From Alphaproteobacteria bacterium (lineage in GTDB: Bacteria; Pseudomonadota; Alphaproteobacteria; RF32; CAG-239): 64,000 nt of DNA. Both the position numbers and the translations under genes were made by a program. Location: positions 51,099-115,098 of the forward strand of contig JAFUSU010000027.1 in NCBI GenBank assembly GCA_017467515.1, read 5' to 3'. The notes beneath the pieces are model-generated. The model saw only the letters and a list, made by a program, of their open reading frames with translations. It did not search any database and had not been told where the DNA came from. Below are positions 19,210 through 51,457 of the stretch, in pieces (position 1 is the first letter of the stretch; each line of letters opens with the position of its first letter).

Positions 19210-20121
19210 ATGAGCAGTGACCTTTCTTTTCCGATATATGTTATTGGCGATACACCTCTTGCTTATTTTTTAGTGGCCAAACTTTCTATAGAGGGAGAAG
19301 ATGTTCGCCTGCTCTCAGAAAATAAAAGCCTGCACACACTAGATTCTTTTACACTAAAAGACGAAACTTTATCTCAAAAAAGAACCGTAAGAATTAAATT
19401 ACAGACAATTATGCACGATAATGCACAAATGATTTTATTGTGCATGAGTCCTGAAAAAATAAAATCCGGTTTAATTTATTTTTCAAAAGCCAAAGCTGAA
19501 AAATGCCCAGTTCTGTCTTTTTGCCAAACCTTAAAGACAGATCTTCTCACAAAGGTTATTGGACAACCGATTATACCGGCCTATTTTGACGGGTGGTTAA
19601 AAACCAATACGGATAATTCTCTTATCTATTACGGAACCCAAAAAGGATTAACTGTCGGTATATCTTCGCATCATTCTCATTATGATATTATTCAGGAAAC
19701 CTTGGATAAAACAGACATTCCAACAGTTTTCAGTGCAAACCAAAAACAAAATTTTTGGAATTATTTTATTCCCGAAGCCACCTGTTCCTTTTTTTCTCTG
19801 CAAAATGGGAACCATTTACGCGACATTGCAAAAAAAACAGCCTTCCGACAAAATTTAAACACCATTTTAGACGAGCTGTTAACCATTGTTCCGGAAAACA
19901 CCGAAATAAATAAAGAGCAGATTATCAGCAGCATATACTCAACACCGTCTAACTACAAATATCCGATATCAGAAGGGACAATTTTGCATCAAAAAGCCGT
20001 ATTATCATATTTGAGCGACGTTATTCGCTCTCAATCTGCTTATAAGGTTTCAAATTTACCGGTAATAAATGCACTCATTACACAACATCAGATGTTACAA
20101 TCATCTTCTGTGGAGGAATAA
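19210..20121 (+). CDS. Hypothetical protein; N-terminus resembles ketopantoate-reductase (ApbA/PanE) Rossmann fold but glycine motif degenerate
   Basis: IYVIGDTPLAYFLVAKL..DVRLL pattern; 303 aa. Confidence 0.45.
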   Translation: MSSDLSFPIYVIGDTPLAYFLVAKLSIEGEDVRLLSENKSLHTLDSFTLKDETLSQKRTVRIKLQTIMHDNAQMILLCMSPEKIKSGLIYFSKAKAEKCPVLSFCQTLKTDLLTKVIGQPIIPAYFDGWLKTNTDNSLIYYGTQKGLTVGISSHHSHYDIIQETLDKTDIPTVFSANQKQNFWNYFIPEATCSFFSLQNGNHLRDIAKKTAFRQNLNTILDELLTIVPENTEINKEQIISSIYSTPSNYKYPISEGTILHQKAVLSYLSDVIRSQSAYKVSNLPVINALITQHQMLQSSSVEE

Positions 20122-20195
20122 CGCATCACCGTTGAACAAATGAAAATATCATACTATAAAAAATATAAAACAAGAAGCAAACGGGGAAGATAAAA

Positions 20196-21263
20196 ATGGA
20201 TACCTTTATAATGATTGCTGTTTCTGTCAGTATATTTTTTCTAAGTTACAGTTGGTTTCTTTTTATTGTCCGAAACGCATCTTCCGAACATCATTTTCTT
20301 GAAATACTCAGGCAACCTCTCGCCCCTGTTTTGTGTCTTGGCAGCATCTGTTTTTTATTAGCCCATATTGTTTCTAAAGGACAACTTGATGCTATTGTTT
20401 ATTTACCGTTAAGATGCCCCGTAATTTTTATTCTGTCATCTTTTGCTTTGCTTATACTCTTAAAGAAGACTGCTTCAAATAAAAAACAATATTTAATCAT
20501 ACTGGCATTTACCCTGATAAACACCTTATGCCTGCCTTCCGAAATAAATATTACCGATAACATTCTGCCGCCTTTAGCGGAAAAATGCGCTTTAGCTTTG
20601 CTGTGGAGTTTATTTGCTTTCTTATATTTCACCCTCAATGGCGTAGAAGGCGTTTTATCCTTGCAAACCTTATCTATAGCCTTAGGCGTAATGGTTTTAT
20701 TTGCTCTGGGAATGATTTCCGGCCTTGACGGATTTTACAGTTGCATCGATATTGCACTGTTTCTCGGACTAATGCTTTTTACAAGCTTTCCCGCAACACT
20801 TAAATTATCCGTACCTGACTGCCGCATTATCGGATTTTTCATTGGGTGGTTAGGTATTTTAATCAGTATTGAAGGTGCCGGAAGCTGTTTTATTATTTTA
20901 AGTATGTACTACATATATGAAACTGCTTTTGCTCTACTAAAAAGATTGAGTTTTCAAGATCAGTTCAAACGGTTGGTTAATAACACTTTTTATGCCCGTT
21001 TGGCCGATACCGGGGTTTCTCCCAAAAATATTTGCAGATTCGTTTCTCGCTTAAATTTGGTAATGATTATTTTGGCCTGTTTTCAGGTGTATGCACCAAA
21101 CAATTATACATTGATTATCTTTTCCGTCTTTATGATTTTTTGGATGATCGGAAAAGTTATGTCAACACAGGAAACGAATAATCACTTATTATTAACGGGA
21201 AGCTTAATTTCTTTTCTGAAAAAAAATAAAAACAATCCCCCAATTCAAGAGAAAAAGGAATAG
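20196..21263 (+). CDS. Polytopic integral membrane protein, hypothetical
   Basis: ~9-10 hydrophobic helices; no recognisable family. Confidence 0.55.
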   Translation: MDTFIMIAVSVSIFFLSYSWFLFIVRNASSEHHFLEILRQPLAPVLCLGSICFLLAHIVSKGQLDAIVYLPLRCPVIFILSSFALLILLKKTASNKKQYLIILAFTLINTLCLPSEINITDNILPPLAEKCALALLWSLFAFLYFTLNGVEGVLSLQTLSIALGVMVLFALGMISGLDGFYSCIDIALFLGLMLFTSFPATLKLSVPDCRIIGFFIGWLGILISIEGAGSCFIILSMYYIYETAFALLKRLSFQDQFKRLVNNTFYARLADTGVSPKNICRFVSRLNLVMIILACFQVYAPNNYTLIIFSVFMIFWMIGKVMSTQETNNHLLLTGSLISFLKKNKNNPPIQEKKE

Positions 21264-21271
21264 CGCAGCTT

Positions 21272-22627
21272 ATGACTTTCCTTAGTAAAATGACCGGTTT
21301 GTTCTCTCCCAAATCTAAAAAAAATATTTCTTTAGAAACAAAATCTGATGTCAAATTCAGAATTGTTGTTGTTGATTTTCAAGACAATATAGAAAGCTCA
21401 AGCGGAGAAAACACCGTCCGGATTCTTCAAACAATGCCCGATTTTGAAGTTCGTTTTTTTGATGAACCATTCAATAAAGCATTCCTCAATCTGGAAAGCA
21501 AAACGCTATTTGATATGATAGATAAAGGACAAACGCTTATAGAAAGGACCGGTGCCGATGTCTTAATCTGGGGATGCCGAGATAATGATAAAATTCGGCT
21601 CAACTTTCAAACCGACAAACAATATGAAAATAAATCTCAAAATTTTGTTTCTTTATTGGATTCTCTTTATCTCCCTGCCAATTTATTCAATAATCCTGAA
21701 GATTTTCCTTCAGCCGTTAAAACTTTAATACACGGAGCAATCATCAGTGCTCTGCACCCAACCGAAACGAGCATTCGGATTCATCGCAAATATTTACTCA
21801 AAAAAGACATTGCAAATTTAAGCAATGATAATTCTGCCAAGCAATTGGCTATTAATTATATGCCATTCATTATGAACTTTTTAGGTATTATATATCTGAG
21901 TTGTAATTTTGACTCTGAAGATATCTCTGACTTTAAAATTACGCAAAATTTATTTACAACAGCCGTTAAGCATCAAGATCTGATTGATTCTCCTTTACAT
22001 TTGGGATGTATTTACTATCATTTGGGACAGCTTAATGACAGCGCAGCTTCTTATCAAAATAAACATCAAAATCGCTTTTTCAGCGATGCCGTCAACGCTT
22101 ATCATCAAGCTCAAAGATACCTCGGTAAATATACTTATCCTTATGATTACGCTCTTATTTGCTATCGTCTGGCTCATCTGTTTTTCAATTATTGGAAAAA
22201 GAAAGAGGATATTCAGGCGCTGCGTGACGCCGTTTCTCAGTTAAGAGAGGTTGAAAAAATCTTTTCTGTTGCTCAATTTTCAGAATTTTGGGCAGATATT
22301 CAGAAAGAACTGGGCTATTATCTTTCTGTTTTGGGAAATATTGTAAAAAGTGCCGATATATATCAACTCGCCATTAACTGCTATCAAAACCAACAAAAAG
22401 TCATCACCGAAAAAAGAGATCCTATCCATTGGGCTGATTCTCAGGAGCGCATCGGTCAGTTGCACTATAAAATCGGCATTGATCGCAGCAACAGAGATCA
22501 CCTTGAAGACGCCTTAGAATGTTTTCATGATGCTCTATATATTTACGAAAACGTTTCTCAAACAGAAAAAATAAAACAACTCCTGATAGCGATAAGTAAA
22601 ACAGATAACGAATTGCGAATTTTATAA
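21272..22627 (+). CDS. Hypothetical protein with TPR-like C-terminal half
   Basis: 451 aa; C-terminal repeats rich in Y/L/A with helical periodicity. Confidence 0.5.
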   Translation: MTFLSKMTGLFSPKSKKNISLETKSDVKFRIVVVDFQDNIESSSGENTVRILQTMPDFEVRFFDEPFNKAFLNLESKTLFDMIDKGQTLIERTGADVLIWGCRDNDKIRLNFQTDKQYENKSQNFVSLLDSLYLPANLFNNPEDFPSAVKTLIHGAIISALHPTETSIRIHRKYLLKKDIANLSNDNSAKQLAINYMPFIMNFLGIIYLSCNFDSEDISDFKITQNLFTTAVKHQDLIDSPLHLGCIYYHLGQLNDSAASYQNKHQNRFFSDAVNAYHQAQRYLGKYTYPYDYALICYRLAHLFFNYWKKKEDIQALRDAVSQLREVEKIFSVAQFSEFWADIQKELGYYLSVLGNIVKSADIYQLAINCYQNQQKVITEKRDPIHWADSQERIGQLHYKIGIDRSNRDHLEDALECFHDALYIYENVSQTEKIKQLLIAISKTDNELRIL

Positions 22628-22670
22628 CGAAAGGCATAGTTTTTTCCGTAATTTAGGACTAAAGACAGAC

Positions 22671-22699
22671 TTGTAAACACAAAATTAACTCTTTATACT
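22671..22699 (+). promoter_or_regulatory. Candidate sigma70 promoter of pilin-like gene 1 (TTGTAA-17-TATACT)
   Basis: Hexamers at 22671-22676 and 22694-22699 with 17-bp spacer, ~40 nt upstream of the ATG. Confidence 0.4.
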
Positions 22700-22740
22700 G
22701 TAAAGTGTAAGCAATAGACTTTTATAAAGGGAGAAAAACA

Positions 22741-23352
22741 ATGACTAAGATTTATCAATTATCAGAGCAAAAGGGCCGTTCTATGGTTGAAATGCTCGGC
22801 GTGCTCGCCATCGTCGGCGTGCTGTCCATCGGTGGTATTTCCGGATACTCTAAAGCTATGGCTAAATATAAAATCAACAAAACCGTTGATCAGGTTTCTA
22901 TGCTGATTACCAGCATTCGTACTGCTTTCGGCAACCAAAACTCTTATGCCGGTTTAACGACAGTAAAGGCCATTAACTATGATTTAGTCGGCAATGATTT
23001 GACACTGGGATCAACCAGTACCTTAACCAATGCCTACTCCGGTAGTGTAACAATCGAGGCCTTGACAGATGCAGGCGCTAGCTGTGGCACCAATACATAT
23101 TGTCCAAAATTTGCGGTTACTTATACAAATCTTGATCGTCAAGCTTGTGCTGTAATCGCCTCTTCTGACTGGGGTGGGTCTGCCGCTTCCGGCTTATATA
23201 GCATTACAATTAACTCAGTAGAGCATACTTGGAACGGAACCGCTAATACCGGTGACGGCTTACCGATTGGTTATGACAAAGCTATGAGCGAATGTTCCGG
23301 CGACGGTAAATCTAAATATGTTACAGCAACTATTAAATGGACTTATTACTAA
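22741..23352 (+). CDS. Type IV pilin-like protein, paralogue 1
   Basis: Leader MTKIYQLSEQKG followed by RSMVEMLGVLAIVGVLSIGGISGY, Glu at +5, hydrophobic alpha1-N helix. C-terminal region has 4 Cys. Strong RBS AAGGGAGA. A prepilin peptidase gene is present at 34405-35118. Confidence 0.75.
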   Translation: MTKIYQLSEQKGRSMVEMLGVLAIVGVLSIGGISGYSKAMAKYKINKTVDQVSMLITSIRTAFGNQNSYAGLTTVKAINYDLVGNDLTLGSTSTLTNAYSGSVTIEALTDAGASCGTNTYCPKFAVTYTNLDRQACAVIASSDWGGSAASGLYSITINSVEHTWNGTANTGDGLPIGYDKAMSECSGDGKSKYVTATIKWTYY

Positions 23353-23372
23353 TATTAATCTTAGTCATCTGA

Positions 23373-23404
23373 AAGGCCTCGTTTCAAAGCGAGGCTTTTT
23401 TTTA
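23373..23404 (+). terminator. Rho-independent terminator after pilin-like gene 1
   Basis: GCCTCG-loop-CGAGGC followed by T8. Confidence 0.8.
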
Positions 23405-23530
23405 TGGTTTTCGCAAAATACTAACTAAAGTTATATAATTATTTATCCCTTATACCTAAAGTCAGTCTTGTAAAATCGAAATATTTTGGATAGGATAGAA
23501 GTATAATAGATTTATAAAGGGAGAAAAACA

Positions 23531-24139
23531 ATGACTAAGATTTATCAATTATCAGAGCAAAAGGGCCGTTCTATGGTTGAAATGCTCGGCGTGCTCGCCA
23601 TCGTCGGCGTGCTGTCCATCGGTGGTATTTCCGGATATTCTAAAGCTATGGCTAAATATAAAATCAACAAAACAGTTGATCAGGTTTCTATGCTGATTAC
23701 CAGTATTCGCACGGCTTTCGGCAACCAAAACTCTTATTACGGTTTGACGACGGAAAAAGCCATTAACTATGATTTGGTCGGCAATGATTTGACATTGGGT
23801 TCAACCTCTACCTTAACCAATGCTTATTCAGGGAGCGTAACCATTGCCGCAAAAACATCTACAGGCGCTGCTTGTTCCACCACTTATTGTCCTGCCTTTT
23901 CAGTTACTTATACAAATCTTGATCGTCAAGCTTGTGCTGTAATCGCCTCTTCTGACTGGGGCGGATCTGCCGCTTCCGGCTTATATAGCATCACAATTAA
24001 CTCATCAACGCACACATGGAACGGAACCGCTAATACCGGTGACGGCTTACCGATTGGTTATGACAAAGCCATGAGCGAATGTTCCGGTGACGGTAAATCT
24101 AAATATGTTACAGCAACCATTATGTGGACTTATTACTAA
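23531..24139 (+). CDS. Type IV pilin-like protein, paralogue 2
   Basis: First ~70 and last ~40 residues are identical to paralogue 1. Central blocks have diverged. Same RBS and same terminator downstream. Confidence 0.75.
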   Translation: MTKIYQLSEQKGRSMVEMLGVLAIVGVLSIGGISGYSKAMAKYKINKTVDQVSMLITSIRTAFGNQNSYYGLTTEKAINYDLVGNDLTLGSTSTLTNAYSGSVTIAAKTSTGAACSTTYCPAFSVTYTNLDRQACAVIASSDWGGSAASGLYSITINSSTHTWNGTANTGDGLPIGYDKAMSECSGDGKSKYVTATIMWTYY

Positions 24140-24159
24140 TATTAATCTTAGTCATCTGA

Positions 24160-24190
24160 AAGGCCTCGTTTCAAAGCGAGGCTTTTTTTA
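24160..24190 (+). terminator. Rho-independent terminator after pilin-like gene 2 (same sequence as after gene 1)
   Basis: GCCTCG-loop-CGAGGC followed by T7. Confidence 0.8.
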
Positions 24191-24259: not shown

Positions 24260-24880
24260 ATGCTTATGGAAATAATTATCTTTTATGCAGCGCTTATCTG
24301 CGCGCTTTTTCTCGGTTTGAGCTATGGGATTTTATTTATCAGAAAAAAAACAAATCTCTCGTCGTTTAAAAGGTTCAATAAACTTGAGTCTTTTCTCTTA
24401 AAGATTCCGGCTCCCTCTGTTAAAATCCTGATAACCCTGCTTATCATTACTGCCATCTGCTTATGTTGGGCTGAAGCGTCTTATCTGACCGATTTATGGT
24501 TGGGAAGAATTGCACTTTCTGTGTGGAACTTAGGCTGTTTATATCTATTGGCCTACATCGTCTATACGATTATTCACCCCTACAGCTTAACAAAAGAAGC
24601 TGCTTGGGCATTTTCCGATAAATATCCTTGTGGGCATAATATAGCAGGATTTATACTGCTGGTTTTCTTGTCAGCCGGTTTAATGTGGCTGTTAAAAGTT
24701 AACGGATATGAGTGGAACATTGCCATTTTCGGTATAAGTGCTCTGGCTGATTATGCAATATTTATGACTGCATACGCTTGCTTCTTTATCGGCAAAATCA
24801 TTTTGTCACTTTGTAAAACAATCTATAAAATGGCAAAGTGGTTGAACAAAGCCTATTGGGAGTGGGTATTGAAACAATAA
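24260..24880 (+). CDS. Integral membrane protein, hypothetical (206 aa, ~6 TM)
   Basis: Hydrophobic helices throughout; immediately downstream of the pilin pair. Confidence 0.5.
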   Translation: MLMEIIIFYAALICALFLGLSYGILFIRKKTNLSSFKRFNKLESFLLKIPAPSVKILITLLIITAICLCWAEASYLTDLWLGRIALSVWNLGCLYLLAYIVYTIIHPYSLTKEAAWAFSDKYPCGHNIAGFILLVFLSAGLMWLLKVNGYEWNIAIFGISALADYAIFMTAYACFFIGKIILSLCKTIYKMAKWLNKAYWEWVLKQ

Positions 24881-30478: not shown

Positions 30479-30553
30479 TGGAGCGGGCAATGGGATTTGA
30501 ACCCACGACATCAACCTTGGCAAGGTTGCGCTCTACCCCTGAGCTATACCCGC
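30479..30553 (-). tRNA. tRNA-Gly (anticodon GCC)
   Basis: Reverse complement GCGGGTATAGCTCAGGGGTAGAGCGCAACCTTGCCAAGGTTGATGTCGTGGGTTCAAATCCCATTGCCCGCTCCA: cloverleaf, anticodon loop TTGCCAA, T-arm GGTTCAAATCC, encoded CCA. Confidence 0.85.
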
Positions 30554-33640: not shown

Positions 33641-34375
33641 TTAGTATTTATTTTTCTTTGTCTTATCTGCACCGCATTTTACCGAAATATCGGCAAACAC
33701 ACTCATTACAAAACTGATGACAATTAAAAATGAAATAAAGACAAATGAGATAAAGAAAATCCAGGCATTCGGGAAAACAGACATCACCGGACGCGCAATA
33801 TTTGAAGCCCAACCGTCAAGTGTAAATACCTGAAGCATTGTAAATACGGCATGAGACAATGTTGAAAATTCAACAAATACACCGCCGTATAAATAAACCG
33901 ACATAATCGAAAAAACATAGAAAAAGACGGCAAAAACAGCCAACATCGCCAAAAAATTGGGAAGCAGTGTAATAAAGATATTGACGATATTTTTCAAACG
34001 AGAAAAACGATTAATATACTTCAATGCTCGGAACAAACGGAATGTTCGTAAAATAATGAAATAATTGGCAAACGGTAACGATGAAATCAAAACGACCGCA
34101 AAATCAAAAACATTCCATCCTTTTTTAAAGAAACCGATTCCGTATGCATAAATTTTCATCAGCATTTCAACAACGAAAATACCCATACATAAGCGATCAA
34201 GAACAAATAAAATTTGATCAAAACGAACATTTTTTATATCTGAGGCCATCAAACCGAGAGCCATCGCATCAATAACAATCAAAGACAAAATGAGCAAATC
34301 AAAGCTCGAGCCTTCGAGTAATTTTTTAATTTTACGTTTATCCGTTTCAACAATTTTTTTCATTATTTTACCCAC
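33641..34375 (-). CDS. Voltage-gated ion channel of the bacterial NaChBac/BacNav family (single 6-TM domain)
   Basis: S4-like segment with Arg/Lys every third residue (RTFRLFRALKYINRFSRLKNI). Pore helix and filter FTLDGWASNIARPVM, close to NaChBac FTLESWAS. Confidence 0.7.
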   Translation of the reverse strand: MGKIMKKIVETDKRKIKKLLEGSSFDLLILSLIVIDAMALGLMASDIKNVRFDQILFVLDRLCMGIFVVEMLMKIYAYGIGFFKKGWNVFDFAVVLISSLPFANYFIILRTFRLFRALKYINRFSRLKNIVNIFITLLPNFLAMLAVFAVFFYVFSIMSVYLYGGVFVEFSTLSHAVFTMLQVFTLDGWASNIARPVMSVFPNAWIFFISFVFISFLIVISFVMSVFADISVKCGADKTKKNKY

Positions 34376-34404: not shown

Positions 34405-35118
34405 TCAGAAAAAGTAAAAAGCAAGCACAATTGCGGCAAGAGATATTGCCGGACCGAAAGCACCATCTCTCCGTCGCATAACAAAAGCAAAAACAGCAAA
34501 CAGGACCGATGCCGCTAAAATAGTATAAACAACAGGTAAAAGCCCCAACCACGCCCCGACTGCCGCCAACAATTTAATATCTCCGCCACCAAAGGCATCT
34601 TTATGTTTCCATACAATCAACACAGCTGCAGTCACCGGCAGCAAATATCCTGCGACAGCCCCTAAAGCACTCTCTATCGGAAGAACCCAAACGCCGTAAA
34701 AAGAGGAAAAAACAAAACCACCGATTAATAAAGGAACCGTAACGACATCAGGCAAAAACATTGTTTTATAGTCAATTTCAAACAACAGAAGCAGTGCCCA
34801 GAAAAAAGCCAAAACGCCCCCCAATCCCAACGGACTGAAATGGAGAGAAGCAGCATAAAACAGAACACCTCCGGCTATACCATACATAAAACTGCGCCAA
34901 AAATATGCGCCGACCAATTTTTTATAAACTTCTCGATCATGGCGCTTCGATCTTGCTACTTTCTTAACCGGCAAAATCAAACGCCAAAAAGCAACGGCAG
35001 CCGTTGCCGGCATAAATTTAGCAAATCGCCGCGCCATATAGGGAATAACAAAACCAAGTACAAAACCGTAAACTGCATAAATCATCATCGGAATTCCTTT
35101 TTGCATATAGGAATACAA
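34405..35118 (-). CDS. pilD: Prepilin leader peptidase / N-methyltransferase (A24 family, PilD-like)
   Basis: GGGDIKLLAAVGAWLG motif and polytopic membrane topology; 237 aa. Confidence 0.75.
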   Translation of the reverse strand: MYSYMQKGIPMMIYAVYGFVLGFVIPYMARRFAKFMPATAAVAFWRLILPVKKVARSKRHDREVYKKLVGAYFWRSFMYGIAGGVLFYAASLHFSPLGLGGVLAFFWALLLLFEIDYKTMFLPDVVTVPLLIGGFVFSSFYGVWVLPIESALGAVAGYLLPVTAAVLIVWKHKDAFGGGDIKLLAAVGAWLGLLPVVYTILAASVLFAVFAFVMRRRDGAFGPAISLAAIVLAFYFF

Positions 35119-40069: not shown

Positions 40070-40384
40070 ATGAAAAAAATATCATCTACTGTAAAAAAAA
40101 CACTCATTTTTTTATTTTTAGCGTTTACAATCCCTTGGATAAATATGGCAACATTTTTTACATCTGCAAAAAATTATCTCGATGAGGAATCTCTAACTTT
40201 ACTCGAAAATGAATCTGAAACAATATATCGCCATTTTTACCTTATTTCCTTATGGGCTCTTATACTGACTTACATTATCGCCAAACAAGTCATTAATAAA
40301 AAAACAAACAAATGGCTTTGGCGAATTGTTTGGTATGTCATTACTGACATTATCCTTTTCTTTGCTTTATGCTTTCTTCCTTAA
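40070..40384 (+). CDS. Small 3-TM membrane protein, paralogue 1 of 3 (immunity-like, hypothetical)
   Basis: 104 aa. C-terminal LTYIIAKQVINKKTNKWLWRIVWYVITDIILFFALCFLP is shared with 40907 and 41414; the N-terminal half has diverged. Confidence 0.65.
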   Translation: MKKISSTVKKTLIFLFLAFTIPWINMATFFTSAKNYLDEESLTLLENESETIYRHFYLISLWALILTYIIAKQVINKKTNKWLWRIVWYVITDIILFFALCFLP

Positions 40385-40535
40385 GAAAAATAAAAAAACG
40401 ACATCACCCTCTATACCTTATAGACTAAGCTTTGAAGGTTTGTTTTTGAAACAAATTGGAACATTTTGGGACACATTAGAACATTTCCCCTACTGGAAAG
40501 ACGATCCTTTTTATGATAAATATATTTTTGTTTTG
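40385..40535 (+). repeat. Cassette repeat B (degenerate hairpin) with conserved peptide-coding stub ...LFLKQIGTFWDTLEHFPYWKDDPFYDKYIFVL
   Basis: Aligns to repeat A (39784) and repeat C (41216); hairpin arms are mutated. Confidence 0.75.
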
Positions 40536-40557
40536 ATAACTAAAAAAGGAAAATATT

Positions 40558-40896
40558 ATGCTATATCCATTACTAAAATTTTCGTTTCGACAAGGAGCTA
40601 AATACTTCGGCTTAAAAAATATTGATTCCGCAGGAATAAAAGAATTAAATAAAAAAGAAGACTATGCCATAAACGCATACCGTGATAAATCTAGCAAACT
40701 CTATAAAAACAAAAAACTGCTTAAAGAATATTACAATCCAGACCTTCCTATTGATAAAAAAGTGTCAAAATGGAATGAAAAAGACTTAATAAATGCCGTA
40801 AATTCGCCTTTATATAAATATGATAAAAACTTGCAATCTATGGCAAAGAATTATATAAAGAAAAGAGCAAAACATAGATTTAACGGATTGAAATAA
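40558..40896 (+). CDS. Lysine-rich basic 112-aa protein (hypothetical; candidate toxin/bacteriocin-like partner of the membrane proteins)
   Basis: ATG with a GGAAAA RBS-like sequence. A truncated copy of its C-terminus (..YDKNLQSMAKNYIKKRAKHRYNGLK) follows repeat C (41330-41410). A more divergent C-terminal remnant (EYIKYRAKHRFGGLF) follows repeat A (~39985-40032). Confidence 0.55.
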   Translation: MLYPLLKFSFRQGAKYFGLKNIDSAGIKELNKKEDYAINAYRDKSSKLYKNKKLLKEYYNPDLPIDKKVSKWNEKDLINAVNSPLYKYDKNLQSMAKNYIKKRAKHRFNGLK

Positions 40897-40906
40897 GGAA
40901 TATTTT

Positions 40907-41215
40907 ATGTCTAAAAAACTTTTTAAAAATATCTTACTCTTTTTGACTTTGGCTTTCACTATTCCATGGCTTAATCTGGCGGCATATTTTACCCTGTTAA
41001 TGGTTAACGCTGATAGTGAAATACAGGAAATTTTAGAAGAAGATCCCGCAACCATTTTCGAAAATTTCTACCTTATTTCTTTATGGGCTTTTATACTGAC
41101 TTACATTATTGCCAAACAAGTCATCAATAAAAAAACAAATAACTGGCTGTGGCGAATAATTTGGTACATCATTACCGATATTATCCTTTTCTTTGCTCTG
41201 TGCCTGATTCCTTAA
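40907..41215 (+). CDS. Small 3-TM membrane protein, paralogue 2 of 3
   Basis: RBS AAGGAA. The last ~45 codons are near-identical at DNA level to 41414..41725. Confidence 0.65.
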   Translation: MSKKLFKNILLFLTLAFTIPWLNLAAYFTLLMVNADSEIQEILEEDPATIFENFYLISLWAFILTYIIAKQVINKKTNNWLWRIIWYIITDIILFFALCLIP

Positions 41216-41340
41216 AAAAAAATAAAAAAAACGACATAAACCTCCAAGCCTTATCACCTAAGGTTTGGAGGTTTGTTTTTGGAACGGATTGGAACATATT
41301 GGGACACATTTGAACATTTCCCCTACTGGGAATATGATAA
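41216..41340 (+). repeat. Cassette repeat C: near-perfect hairpin (41241-41280) + conserved stub fused in-frame to a 3' fragment of the 112-aa ORF
   Basis: CCTCCAAGCCTTA-loop-TAAGGTTTGGAGG followed by TTTGTTTTT; encodes IGTYWDTFEHFPYWEYDKNLQSMAKNYIKKRAKHRYNGLK with no obvious start codon. Confidence 0.8.
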
Positions 41341-41413
41341 AAACTTGCAATCTATGGCAAAGAATTATATAAAGAAAAGAGCAAAACATAGATACAATGG
41401 GCTAAAATAGAAA

Positions 41414-41725
41414 ATGTACAACTTTTTTACAACCATTAAGAAAGCTTTTTTTCTTTTAATCACCGCCTTTATTGTAGCTTGGTTTTCAACCGGTGCTTTA
41501 TTTGCGATGTTTGAAAGCTTGGAGGATGAAGATATTCAAGCGCTTATTTCGAAAAACTTCTCTTTTGCATATATGAATATTTTTCAAGATGCAATTATTG
41601 CTTTTACGCTGACTTACATTATTGCCAAACAAGTCATCAATAAAAAAACAAATAACTGGCTGTGGCGAATAATTTGGTACATCATTACCGACATTATCCT
41701 TTTCTTTGCTTTATGTCTTATTTGA
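41414..41725 (+). CDS. Small 3-TM membrane protein, paralogue 3 of 3
   Basis: 103 aa; conserved C-terminus, divergent N-terminal loop. Confidence 0.65.
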   Translation: MYNFFTTIKKAFFLLITAFIVAWFSTGALFAMFESLEDEDIQALISKNFSFAYMNIFQDAIIAFTLTYIIAKQVINKKTNNWLWRIIWYIITDIILFFALCLI

Positions 41726-42556: not shown

Positions 42557-42715
42557 TAAAAATCCCCGAGTTGCCTAAACTCAGGGATTTTTTTATAAGT
42601 ATCCGAATATTCATCCCCTTTGTAAAGGGGAGGCTAGGCAGGGTAGAATAACCCACCCTAACCCTCCCTCACATAGGGAGGGAATAATAAGCATTTTTTA
42701 TCGATTAACTCTGCA

Positions 42716-51381: not shown

Positions 51382-51457
<76 letters not shown>

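What the first reader, a model, noticed from the sequence alone, without database searches (positions are those of the whole stretch)
22741..24139. Tandem pilin-like paralogues with identical ends and a diversified centre
The two genes share identical upstream 30 nt with RBS and identical terminators. They share the first ~70 and last ~40 codons with only a few synonymous differences, but differ in three internal blocks (residues ~70-75, ~104-120, ~156-160, including the Cys-containing region). This mosaic is the signature of gene conversion or diversifying selection on surface-exposed pilin regions. The leader is atypical: 12 aa, with Arg at +1 after Gly instead of Phe/Met. The processing enzyme sits 10 kb away, next to an ion-channel gene. 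No pilB/pilC/pilQ genes are in the window.
Basis: partly seen in the sequence, partly recalled or inferred. Interest (0 to 1): 0.6.

Follow-up and report, generated by a model that had tools for sequence, protein, structure and literature searches.

The report
Tandem type IVb pilin genes exchanging segments
Two neighbouring genes for the main building block of a bacterial surface fibre (a type IVb pilus) in an uncultured ruminant-gut alphaproteobacterium keep copying their ends onto one another, which explains the 'identical ends, different middle' pattern; this is a clear natural example of a known process, not a new kind of system.

Summary
Genes A (22741-23352) and B (23531-24139) are tandem, complete copies, each with its own promoter, ribosome-binding site and terminator. 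They encode type IVb major pilins: they match Pfam PilS and Bundlin, the AlphaFold model matches only type IVb pilins, and relatives sit at the end of complete type IVb pilus clusters.

The mosaic comes from gene conversion, not from demonstrable positive selection:
- Synonymous divergence is 0.11-0.20 in the ends but 0.75 in the centre.
- dN/dS in the variable core is 0.42.
- Other metagenome assemblies of the same strain are identical over 8.6 kb except for one 163-bp tract. In two contigs A carries B's 14 bases; in another contig B carries A's 14 bases.

Other points:
- There are no silent cassettes in the window.
- The predicted cleavage site G12|R13 (Arg at +1, Glu at +5) is invariant in 81 aligned family members.
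- The A24 peptidase at 34405-35118 has no detectable methyltransferase domain. In a relative it lies directly next to the pilin gene.
- Pilus assembly genes are absent from the window and from 10 kb beyond its left end. Whether this genome has them was not established.

Verdict: a new member of a known kind, of moderate interest.

The parts
22659..22699 (+). Promoter region of pilin A. It holds the 19-nt motif CTAAAGACAGACTTGTAAA (22659-22677), which overlaps a -35-like TTGTAA, then a 17-nt spacer, then TATACT.
   Evidence: Promoter scan. The motif occurs in the window only upstream of the two pilins, against 0.05 matches expected by chance. In 1.5 Mb of related loci, all 18 matches lie upstream of pilin genes. 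Promoter function is inferred.
22722..22740 (+). 5' UTR and ribosome-binding site of A, identical to that of B (TTTATAAAGGGAGAAAAACA).
   Evidence: Pairwise alignment.
22741..23352 (+). Pilin A: a 203-aa type IVb major prepilin. It is identical to GenBank MBQ8465562.1 (IJ545_06080).
   Evidence: Pfam PilS E 4e-10 and Bundlin E 1e-6, both above the gathering score. Exact look-up. AlphaFold model with pLDDT 86.7, whose top 16 PDB matches are all type IVb pilins.
22948..23115 (+). Old, unconverted centre of A (nt 208-375, codons 70-125). It covers part of the alpha-beta loop and the beta1-beta2 loop with the C115-C121 pair.
   Evidence: dS 0.75 and dN/dS 0.23. The A/B differences fall on family-wide variable columns (Mann-Whitney p = 3e-4). 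Secondary structure.
23175..23337 (+). 3' conversion tract in A (nt 435-597). In L001 and L003 all 14 A/B-distinguishing sites carry the B base.
   Evidence: The variant protein P0242 was seen on 8 contigs.
23354..23400 (+). 3' UTR of A: a 15-nt arm complementary to the first 15 nt of the coding sequence (23354-23368), followed by an intrinsic terminator (23371-23400).
   Evidence: Inverted repeats I4-I7. Terminator scan.
23456..23530 (+). Promoter region of pilin B (motif CTAAAGTCAGTCTTGTAAA at 23456-23474) and the shared 5' UTR and ribosome-binding site (23512-23530).
23531..24139 (+). Pilin B: a 202-aa type IVb major prepilin. It is identical to P0003 / MBQ8465563.1 (IJ545_06085).
   Evidence: Pfam PilS E 2e-11 and Bundlin E 9e-8..
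23962..24124 (+). 3' conversion tract in B (nt 432-594). In L102 all 14 sites carry the A base.
   Evidence: The variant protein P0244 was seen on 2 contigs.
24141..24187 (+). 3' UTR of B: the same 15-nt arm (24141-24155) and terminator (24158-24187) as in A.
34405..35118 (-). Prepilin peptidase, A24 domain only. The ORF is at most 237 aa (TTG start); the true start may be a few codons further in. It is the candidate enzyme for cleaving both pilins at G12|R13.
   Evidence: Pfam PF01478, E 2.6e-19, residues 103-211, with no other domain hit. The sequence shows EIDYKTMFLPD and GGGDIKLL and has no cysteine in residues 1-100. In relatives L015 and L016 its homologue lies directly downstream of the pilin gene. 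Cleavage itself is inferred.

Best explanation
A and B are two complete, separately transcribed genes for the major subunit of a type IVb pilus, of the PilS/bundlin kind, in an uncultured low-GC alphaproteobacterium from the ruminant gut.

How the proteins are most likely made and used:
- Each prepilin has a 12-residue leader ending in Gly.
- The A24 peptidase at 34405-35118 most likely removes the leader, leaving Arg as residue 1 and Glu as residue 5.
- This peptidase lacks the methyltransferase domain, so the new N-terminus is probably not methylated.
- The mature pilins would be polymerised by a type IVb machinery encoded elsewhere in the genome. In relatives this machinery (TcpQ-like protein, secretin, PilO, ATPase, platform protein and a PilT-like ATPase) lies directly upstream of such pilin genes.

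How the mosaic arose:
- The duplication is old, since dS in the centre is about 0.75.
- Recurrent non-reciprocal recombination (gene conversion) between the two copies keeps re-homogenising the 5' third and the 3' third.
- The divergent centre escapes. Either its low identity blocks the exchange, or selection keeps two surface variants.
- Conversion runs in both directions and is frequent compared with point mutation. Three haplotypes coexist among strains that show no other substitution in 8.6 kb.

What is shown: the gene structure, the family assignment and fold, the heterogeneity of dS, and the conversion tracts.
What is inferred: cleavage, lack of methylation, assembly by an unlinked machinery, co-expression of both genes, and surface exposure of the variable loops.
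For: Pilin identity:
- Pfam PilS and Bundlin score above the gathering threshold.
- The family profile matches BfpA 1zwt (E 2e-14), S. Typhi PilS 1q5f (E 5e-6) and TcpA 8uhf (E 9e-4).
- The AlphaFold model has pLDDT 86.7. Its top 16 Foldseek hits in the PDB are all type IVb pilins.
- G12, R13, S14, M15 and E17 are invariant, and C136 and C185 nearly invariant, in 81 sequences.

Machinery in relatives:
- L012-L014 carry TcpQ, secretin, PAP_PilO, a 522-aa protein, T2SSE, T2SSF, a pilin-like protein, a minor pilin and two major pilins in a row, with a PilT-like ATPase downstream after one unrelated gene.
- The same cluster lies next to the pilin in 26 of 80 GTDB loci.

Link to the peptidase:
- The order pilin, A24 peptidase, Ion_trans is found in L015 and L016.

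Separate expression:
- Each copy has its own promoter-like site with a conserved 19-nt motif, its own ribosome-binding site and its own terminator.

Gene conversion:
- dS is 0.11 (codons 1-69), 0.75 (70-125), 0.13 (126-158) and 0.20 (163-203).
- Synonymous differences cluster in the centre (binomial p = 1.6e-4).
- L001 and L003 differ from the window only by 14 sites in A nt 435-597, all switched to the B base. L001 has one further site, at B nt 108, switched to the A base.
- L102 differs only by 14 sites in B nt 432-594, all switched to the A base.
- Protein haplotypes P0241, P0242, P0243, P0244 and P0001-P0004 show all four combinations of centre type and 3' type.
- The tandem pair in L012 shows the same mosaic.
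- In 7 of 15 adjacent pairs across the loci examined (the window, lineage-representative metagenome loci and GTDB species), the two partners are each other's closest relatives.
Against: - No assembly ATPase, platform protein or secretin lies in the 64-kb window or in 10 kb beyond its left end. I could not establish that this genome has them.
- Expression, cleavage and surface exposure are untested.
- The haplotypes come from short-read metagenome assemblies, so a wrongly resolved repeat is conceivable. It is unlikely, because in the converted haplotypes one 3' variant is used twice and the other is absent. An assembler error would more likely swap the two. The converted forms also recur on 8 and 2 contigs.
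- Homologous exchange between strains, rather than within one chromosome, could produce some of the mosaics.
Confidence: 0.8

Rival explanations
1. Positive (diversifying) selection on exposed loops is what made the centre different. On this view the ends are alike simply because they are constrained, and no conversion is needed.
For: The A/B amino-acid differences fall on the family's most variable columns. Codons 159-162 give dN/dS 1.5. The strain variants P0001, P0243 and P0004 change residues in the same blocks.
Against: Constraint on the protein cannot explain why synonymous divergence is 4 to 7 times lower in the ends (p = 1.6e-4). dN/dS in the variable core is 0.42. Codons 76-103 have dS 0.67 with dN/dS 0.05. 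Conversion tracts are seen directly. Selection may still be what preserves the centre, but it is not needed to explain the mosaic.
Confidence: 0.2
2. This is a programmed, high-frequency antigenic or phase variation system, as in Neisseria pilE/pilS, but with two expressed loci in place of silent cassettes.
For: Among strains with no other substitution in 8.6 kb there are at least two full conversion events, in opposite directions, and possibly a third (B nt 108 in L001). The samples are from one study and have neighbouring BioSample numbers.
Against: Both copies are complete genes with promoters. The window holds no truncated or silent copies. There is no G4 motif near the locus and no inverted repeat flanking a promoter. 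No recombinase gene was recognised by eye in the ORF translations, though not all ORFs were run against Pfam. The tracts homogenise the copies and so create little new diversity. A sister lineage appears to carry the same protein (P0002) in both slots.
Confidence: 0.12
3. The strain haplotypes are assembly chimeras of a two-copy repeat. Only the window arrangement exists in nature.
For: The tract is bounded by stretches of 59 and about 70 identical bases, which short k-mers cannot bridge. L007 has an N-gap in its second copy, and L008 and L009 break at the repeat.
Against: A wrongly resolved repeat should swap the two 3' variants. Instead one variant is duplicated and the other is lost. The converted forms recur (P0242 on 8 contigs, P0244 on 2). 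The same assembly pipeline returns the unconverted A 3' end in another sample (L005). The heterogeneity of dS within the window does not depend on any other assembly.
Confidence: 0.06
4. The two genes are orphan pilins that no longer serve a type IVb pilus. Either the machinery has been lost in this lineage, or the pilins feed another type IV filament system.
For: No machinery lies within about 74 kb. 54 of 80 GTDB pilin loci also lack adjacent machinery, and none of those genomes showed a machinery-linked locus among the 80 loci kept.
Against: Purifying selection is strong (overall dN/dS 0.20, and 0 in the N-terminal 69 codons). Promoters, ribosome-binding sites, terminators and an A24 peptidase are all intact and conserved across species at the same chromosomal slot. 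The GTDB scan kept only the best 80 of at least 589 hits, so failing to see machinery in those genomes says little.
Confidence: 0.12

Closest known systems
Type IVb major pilins: BfpA bundlin (EPEC), PilS (Salmonella Typhi and the R64 thin pilus), TcpA (Vibrio cholerae), CofA (ETEC)
   Same: - The genes match Pfam PF05307 and PF08805.
- The family profile matches 1zwt, 1q5f and 8uhf.
- The fold matches 3fhu, 8uhf, 9iuf and 3s0t.
- The leader is about 12 aa and ends in Lys-Gly, like the 13-aa leader of BfpA (the BfpA figure is from my own knowledge).
- Glu sits at +5, and a conserved Cys pair (C136, C185) brackets the C-terminal region.
- Relatives lie in clusters with TcpQ, a secretin, PAP_PilO, T2SSE and T2SSF.
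   Different: - Sequence identity to solved pilins is only 11-22%.
- Residue +1 is an invariant Arg. In the characterised members it is Met, Leu or Val (from my own knowledge).
- The associated peptidase has no methyltransferase domain.
- In this genome the pilin genes are unlinked from any assembly cluster.
- The hosts are uncultured gut Alphaproteobacteria, not enteric Gammaproteobacteria.
Streptococcus sanguinis PilE1/PilE2: two adjacent major pilins that build one heteropolymeric type IV pilus (PMC6497953, PMC10628169)
   Same: Both cases have two highly similar, complete major-pilin genes side by side, with identical N-termini and differences concentrated in a loop. In S. sanguinis both proteins are found in the same filament in a 4:3 ratio (PMC6497953). 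That makes co-assembly a reasonable expectation here.
   Different: S. sanguinis is a monoderm with a type IVa pilus, Phe at +1 and N-methylation. Co-assembly is untested here. Conversion between pilE1 and pilE2 was not something I examined.
Neisseria pilE/pilS pilin antigenic variation
   Same: In both, non-reciprocal transfer of pilin sequence between paralogous copies alters part of an expressed pilin while the conserved regions act as the recombination substrate.
   Different: Neisseria has one expressed locus and many promoterless, 5'-truncated silent copies. It needs a G4 element, and the process generates diversity. Here there are two expressed full-length copies, no silent copies and no G4 in the neighbourhood, and the observed tracts homogenise the copies.
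Concerted evolution of tandem bacterial paralogues by RecA-dependent gene conversion (for example tufA/tufB; general treatment in PMC5485169)
   Same: Conversion tracts are bounded by homology, run in both directions, and keep parts of duplicated genes near-identical while divergent segments escape.
   Different: Here the target is a surface-structure gene, and the unconverted segment coincides with the family's hypervariable loops. Selection for two variants may therefore define the tract limits.

Membership tests
Type IV pilin (class III signal peptide) | A hydrophilic leader ending in Gly or Ala, followed by about 20 hydrophobic residues, often with Glu at +5 (definition from PMC10191384). 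| tested here: met
   MTKIYQLSEQKG | RSMVEMLGVLAIVGVLSIGGISGY in both genes. G12 and E17 are invariant in 81 sequences.
Type IV pilin (class III signal peptide) | Cleavage by a prepilin peptidase after the Gly. | not testable with these tools
   An A24 peptidase gene is present at 34405-35118 and lies next to the pilin in L015. Cleavage needs mass spectrometry or a processing assay.
Type IVb pilin (PilS/Bundlin, PF08805/PF05307) | A score above the Pfam gathering threshold. | tested here: met
   PilS 40.3 and 44.6 bits (cut-off 22). Bundlin 29.3 and 32.9 bits (cut-off 22.3).
Type IVb pilin (PilS/Bundlin, PF08805/PF05307) | The type IVb pilin fold: a long N-terminal helix plus a globular head, with a C-terminal region bracketed by a Cys pair. 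| tested here: met
   The AlphaFold model has pLDDT 86.7 and a helix over residues 11-63. The top 16 PDB matches are all type IVb pilins, with E down to 8e-7. C136 and C185 are nearly invariant. The disulfide itself is inferred.
Type IVb pilin (PilS/Bundlin, PF08805/PF05307) | A long leader (classically 15-30 aa) and a non-Phe residue at +1. | tested here: inconclusive
   The leader is 12 aa. That is longer than type IVa leaders and close to BfpA, but below the classical range. Residue +1 is Arg, which is non-Phe but not a residue known from characterised members. PMC10191384 notes that leader length does not discriminate reliably.
Type IVb pilus system | Pilin genes clustered with a dedicated secretin, extension ATPase and platform protein. 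| tested here: not met
   None of these is in the window or in 10 kb to its left. The feature is met in relatives: L012-L014 and 26 of 80 GTDB loci. Presence elsewhere in this genome was not tested: the ATPase search did not reach this lineage, and the GTDB scan did not return this species.
Neisseria-type pilE/pilS antigenic variation | Promoterless, truncated silent cassettes that donate to a single expression locus. | tested here: not met
   tblastn and blastn of the repeat unit against the window find only the two full-length copies. Both have promoter-like sites, a ribosome-binding site and a terminator.
Neisseria-type pilE/pilS antigenic variation | A G-quadruplex-forming element upstream of the expressed gene. 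| tested here: not met
   The only G4-type motif in the 64-kb window is at 42652, 19 kb away.
Gene conversion between paralogues (concerted evolution) | Non-reciprocal replacement of a contiguous tract by the paralogue's sequence, on an otherwise unchanged background. | tested here: met
   In L001 and L003, 14 of 14 sites in A nt 435-597 become the B base. In L102, 14 of 14 sites in B nt 432-594 become the A base. There are 0 other differences in 8.6 kb in L003 and L102, and 1 in L001.
Gene conversion between paralogues (concerted evolution) | Synonymous divergence that differs along the gene. | tested here: met
   dS is 0.11-0.20 in the ends and 0.75 in codons 70-125. Binomial p = 1.6e-4.
Heteropolymeric pilus of two major pilins (S. 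sanguinis type) | Both proteins found in the same filament. | not testable with these tools
   This needs pilus purification. Here only the gene arrangement and the identical N-terminal 69 residues are shown.

The most novel reading that the evidence does not exclude
The locus would be a minimal pilin variation device that needs no silent cassettes. It would consist of two expressed tandem major-pilin genes whose conserved 5' and 3' thirds serve as built-in recombination arms. Frequent conversion in both directions would then reshuffle which surface loops (the centre, the 160-161 turn, residue 199) sit together on each subunit, within a single host population.

Two unusual properties would come with it:
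- A family-wide mature N-terminus of Arg, made by a peptidase with no methyltransferase domain. The Arg side chain would replace the N-methyl amine as the partner of Glu5.
- A 3'-UTR element that pairs with the start-codon region of the same mRNA.
Probability: 0.15. Interest if true: 0.65.

Novelty: new member of a known kind. Interest (0 to 1): 0.42.

Why it matters
Type IVb pili have been studied almost only in enteric pathogens.
- This locus belongs to a family of at least 1,725 protein clusters (clustered at 90% identity) in uncultured gut and rumen Alphaproteobacteria. The family has a complete R64/Bfp-like machinery in many members and an invariant Arg at the mature N-terminus. A charged residue at +1 is unexpected for a residue that sits in the hydrophobic core of the filament beside Glu5.
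- The locus also gives an unusually clean natural record of gene conversion. There are three haplotypes, with both directions of transfer and no other mutation in 8.6 kb. That lets the rate and tract limits of conversion between expressed surface-protein paralogues be measured directly in metagenomes.
- For annotation, it shows that an 'identical ends, variable centre' pattern should not be read as positive selection without first checking synonymous sites.

Tried and rejected
1. Looking for the assembly machinery in the same organism.
   - A protein search with the ATPase of L012 returned 120 hits, all at least 80% identical to the query. None came from the window's lineage, and NCBI names carry no locus tag for named proteins.
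The best hit was 61% identical.
   - Extending the left end by 10 kb showed only housekeeping genes.
   - The look-up for the right end (rpsA from my guessed start codon) found no record.
2. Silent cassettes: tblastn and blastn found no partial copies in the window.
3. An invertible promoter or shufflon: no inverted repeat flanks a promoter. No recombinase was recognised by eye in the ORF translations, but the ORFs were not all run against Pfam.
4. A G4 element near the pilins: none.
5. The idea that the GC-rich N-terminal coding stretch is conserved at the DNA level across species, as a recombination substrate. The fraction of identical codons at identical residues is 0.45 in the N-terminus against 0.43 elsewhere, so this was rejected. 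Only GC3 is somewhat higher.
6. The three conserved upstream genes (303, 355 and 451 aa) and the downstream 206-aa membrane protein as pilus components. They have no Pfam or NCBIfam hits above threshold, and they accompany the pilin only in the window's own clade. They were not pursued.
7. Literature. No paper contains the N-terminal motif string. No paper was found on type IVb pili in these gut Alphaproteobacteria.
The statement that they are exposed rests on secondary structure and on analogy.
Full report
WHAT IS THERE.

On the + strand lie two ORFs, A (22741-23352, 203 aa) and B (23531-24139, 202 aa). A 680-nt unit is repeated at 91% identity (22722-23401 against 23512-24188). The unit contains:
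- 20 nt of 5' UTR with a GGGAG ribosome-binding site;
- the coding sequence;
- about 50 nt of 3' UTR with a 13-bp-stem terminator (23371-23400 and 24158-24187).

Upstream of the identical part the two copies differ, but both keep a 19-nt motif, CTAAAG[A/T]CAG[A/T]CTTGTAAA, overlapping a -35-like TTGTAA (22659-22677 and 23456-23474).
- In the window the motif occurs only there, against 0.05 matches expected by chance.
- In 1.5 Mb of related loci all 18 matches lie upstream of pilin genes.

So each copy is a complete transcription unit. The window holds no further copies or fragments, and no other ORF has a class III signal peptide.

WHAT THE PROTEINS ARE.

- Both proteins score above the Pfam gathering thresholds for PilS (PF08805) and Bundlin (PF05307).
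- A profile of 81 family members matches solved BfpA (1zwt, E 2e-14), S. Typhi PilS (1q5f, E 5e-6) and TcpA (8uhf, E 9e-4).
- An AlphaFold model (pLDDT 86.7, pTM 0.77) has a helix spanning residues 11-63 and a beta-sheet head. Its 16 best PDB matches are all type IVb pilins.
- The N-terminus reads MTKIYQLSEQKG|RSMVEMLGVLAIVGVLS. G12, R13, S14, M15 and E17 are invariant in the 81 sequences, whose identity to A (global, in alignment A1) goes down to about 42%. C136 and C185 are nearly invariant.
- The predicted mature protein therefore starts with Arg and has Glu at position 5. This fits the general definition of a class III signal peptide (PMC10191384). As far as I know, Arg at +1 is not found in any characterised type IVb pilin.

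FAMILY AND CONTEXT.

The family has at least 1,725 clusters at 90% identity. Almost all come from metagenomes or from MAGs labelled Alphaproteobacteria. The GTDB hits include 'Proteobacteria bacterium CAG:495', 'Acetobacter sp. CAG:977' and many rumen or gut MAGs. B is identical to MBQ8465563.1 and A to MBQ8465562.1, which are IJ545_06085 and IJ545_06080 of a MAG Alphaproteobacteria bacterium.

Machinery in relatives:
- In relative L012 (pilin 47% identical) the pilins close a full cluster. The order is a TcpQ-like protein, a secretin, PAP_PilO, a 522-aa protein, a T2SSE ATPase, a T2SSF platform protein, a pilin-like protein, a minor pilin and two tandem major pilins. A PilT-like ATPase follows downstream after one unrelated gene.
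- The same cluster lies next to the pilin in 26 of 80 GTDB loci. The other 54 are pilin loci with no machinery within 10 kb.

The window's own clade (L006, L015, L017):
- The pilin sits in a fixed slot after RsmB and three unannotated genes of 303, 355 and 451 aa.
- That slot holds one pilin in L006 and L015 and two in L017 and L018.
- In L015 and L016 the next genes are the A24 peptidase and the ion channel.
- In the window these two genes lie 10 kb away, on the other strand (34405-35118 and 33641-34375). So the peptidase-pilin linkage exists in the clade and has been broken here by rearrangement.

The peptidase:
- It has only the A24 domain (residues 103-211).
- It has the EID...LPD and GGGD motifs.
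- It has no cysteine in its first 100 residues.
- I therefore infer that it cleaves but does not N-methylate.

WHY THE ENDS ARE ALIKE AND THE CENTRE DIFFERS.

Nei-Gojobori estimates between A and B:

| Codons | dS | dN | dN/dS |
|---|---|---|---|
| 1-69 | 0.11 | 0 | 0 |
| 70-125 | 0.75 | 0.18 | 0.23 |
| 104-125 (most variable block, part of the row above) | not listed | not listed | 0.42 |
| 126-158 | 0.13 | 0 | 0 |
| 159-162 | not listed | not listed | 1.5 (four codons only) |
| 163-203 | 0.20 | not listed | 0.08 |

- Synonymous differences cluster in codons 70-125 (20 of 33 where 9.6 are expected; p = 1.6e-4).
- Protein-level constraint cannot lower synonymous divergence. The ends must therefore be younger than the centre, which is what conversion produces.
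- The amino-acid differences do fall on the family's most variable columns (p = 3e-4). In the model these lie in the alpha-beta loop (residues 70, 75), in the beta1-beta2 loop carrying the extra C115-C121 pair (106-124), and in a hairpin turn (160-161).
- That these residues are exposed on the filament is an inference.

DIRECT EVIDENCE FROM OTHER STRAINS.

I compared four other assemblies with the window over the same 8,609 bases; L003 covers only the first 5,795 of them.
- L002 is identical to the window.
- L001 and L003 differ at 14 positions, all within A nt 435-597, and every one is switched to the base that B carries. L001 also has B nt 108 switched to the A base.
- L102 differs at 14 positions, all within B nt 432-594, and every one is switched to the base that A carries.

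Three haplotypes therefore exist on an otherwise unmutated background, produced by non-reciprocal transfer in both directions. The corresponding proteins were seen on 4 contigs (P0241, window type A), 8 (P0242), 12 (P0003, window type B) and 2 (P0244). Further mosaics or point variants are P0001, P0002, P0004 and P0243. All four combinations of centre type and 3' type occur.

In a sister lineage (about 98% nucleotide identity) the same protein, P0002, sits in slot A (L007, L009) and in slot B (L008), and the contigs break or gap at the repeat. This suggests that both copies have become identical there.

The pattern is not unique to this species.
- The two major pilins of L012 show 90-100% identity in the ends and 27-60% in the centre.
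- Of 15 adjacent pilin pairs in the loci examined (the window, lineage-representative metagenome loci and GTDB species), 7 are each other's closest relatives. The others are old pairs conserved between species.

CAVEATS.

- All comparisons rest on short-read assemblies. Chimeric resolution of the repeat cannot be fully excluded. However, it would be expected to swap the two 3' variants, not to duplicate one and lose the other.
- I could not show that this organism has a pilus machinery.
- Expression, processing, co-assembly and exposure are all inferred.

COMPARISON WITH KNOWN SYSTEMS.

- The genes are members of the type IVb pilin family by sequence and by fold.
- The locus does not meet the 'clustered with machinery' feature of type IVb systems.
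- It is not a Neisseria-type system: there are no silent cassettes and no G4 motif nearby.
- The closest functional analogy for two expressed major pilins is S. sanguinis PilE1/PilE2, which form one heteropolymeric filament (PMC6497953).
- The evolutionary process is ordinary concerted evolution by gene conversion.

VERDICT.

Its interpretation is half right: gene conversion yes, diversifying selection not shown. This is a new member of a known kind. Its points of interest are the invariant Arg at +1, the methylase-less peptidase, and an exceptionally clean population record of conversion in both directions.

Noticed in passing
window 22741-22755 with 23354-23368, and 23531-23545 with 24141-24155: The first 15 nt of each pilin coding sequence (ATGACTAAGATTTAT) are 14/15 complementary to the 15 nt that start 2 nt after the stop codon (ATTAATCTTAGTCAT), just before the terminator. 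RNA duplex energy is -16.8 kcal/mol, against about -7 for shuffles. The pairing is kept in L006 (13 nt). In L019 it is kept through a compensatory C-G to U-A change. Unrelated but complementary sequence pairs occur in some other family genes (L025, L034, L062, L045, L012). Across the family, 9 of 88 genes reach p <= 0.01, but so do 4 of 88 in a distal control, so the signal is real only for a subset. It may be a 3'-UTR element that masks the start codon, as the icaR 3' UTR does in S. aureus (the icaR comparison is from my own knowledge).
   Followed up: partly
window 22659-22677 and 23456-23474; also upstream of pilins in L006, L019 and L023: A 19-nt motif, CTAAAG[A/T]CAG[A/T]CTTGTAAA, that includes the -35-like hexamer occurs only upstream of pilin genes. 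There are 2 exact matches in the window, and all 18 matches in 1.5 Mb of related loci are upstream of pilins. It is found even in a species whose pilin is 46% identical and linked to the machinery. It may be a binding site for a pilin-specific regulator.
   Followed up: partly
window 33641-34375 (-) and 34405-35118 (-); L015 10848-12286: The A24 prepilin peptidase is immediately next to a single-domain Ion_trans channel gene of about 240 aa (NaChBac-like). The pair stays together in L015 and L016 even though the surrounding genes are arranged differently. No functional link between them is known to me.
   Followed up: no
window 19210-22627 and 24260-24880: Four genes have no Pfam or NCBIfam hit above threshold: 303 aa, a 355-aa polytopic membrane protein, a 451-aa protein with weak TPR-like hits, and a 206-aa membrane protein downstream. 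The three upstream genes flank the pilin slot in all members of the window's clade (L006, L015, L017), and the 206-aa gene follows the pilin in L006 and L017 but not in L015, where the A24 peptidase takes that place. None of them is present at the GTDB pilin loci of more distant relatives.
   Followed up: partly
window 40070-41725: Three small paralogous membrane-protein genes (104, 102 and 103 aa) share a near-identical C-terminal half (IAKQVINKKTNxWLWRIxWYxITDIILFFALC) and have divergent N-terminal halves. A 112-aa gene lies between them. This is a second tandem family in the window with a mosaic pattern.
   Followed up: no
L024 9304-10671 (GTDB MAG CALYAW01): This locus carries three tandem major-pilin genes after the machinery. 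Two of them are 100% identical at the protein level and the third is 69% identical. It is an extreme case of the same homogenisation.
   Followed up: no
window 22801-22860 (and the same stretch in B): The stretch encoding the hydrophobic N-terminal helix is much more GC-rich (55%, GC3 0.53) than the genome (38%) and than the rest of the gene (GC3 0.38). The same holds across the family (mean GC3 0.47 against 0.35). It is not explained by extra synonymous conservation between species.
   Followed up: partly
window 30482-30553 (-) and 51385-51457 (-): These two tRNA genes are the only Rfam matches in the window at gathering threshold.
   Followed up: no
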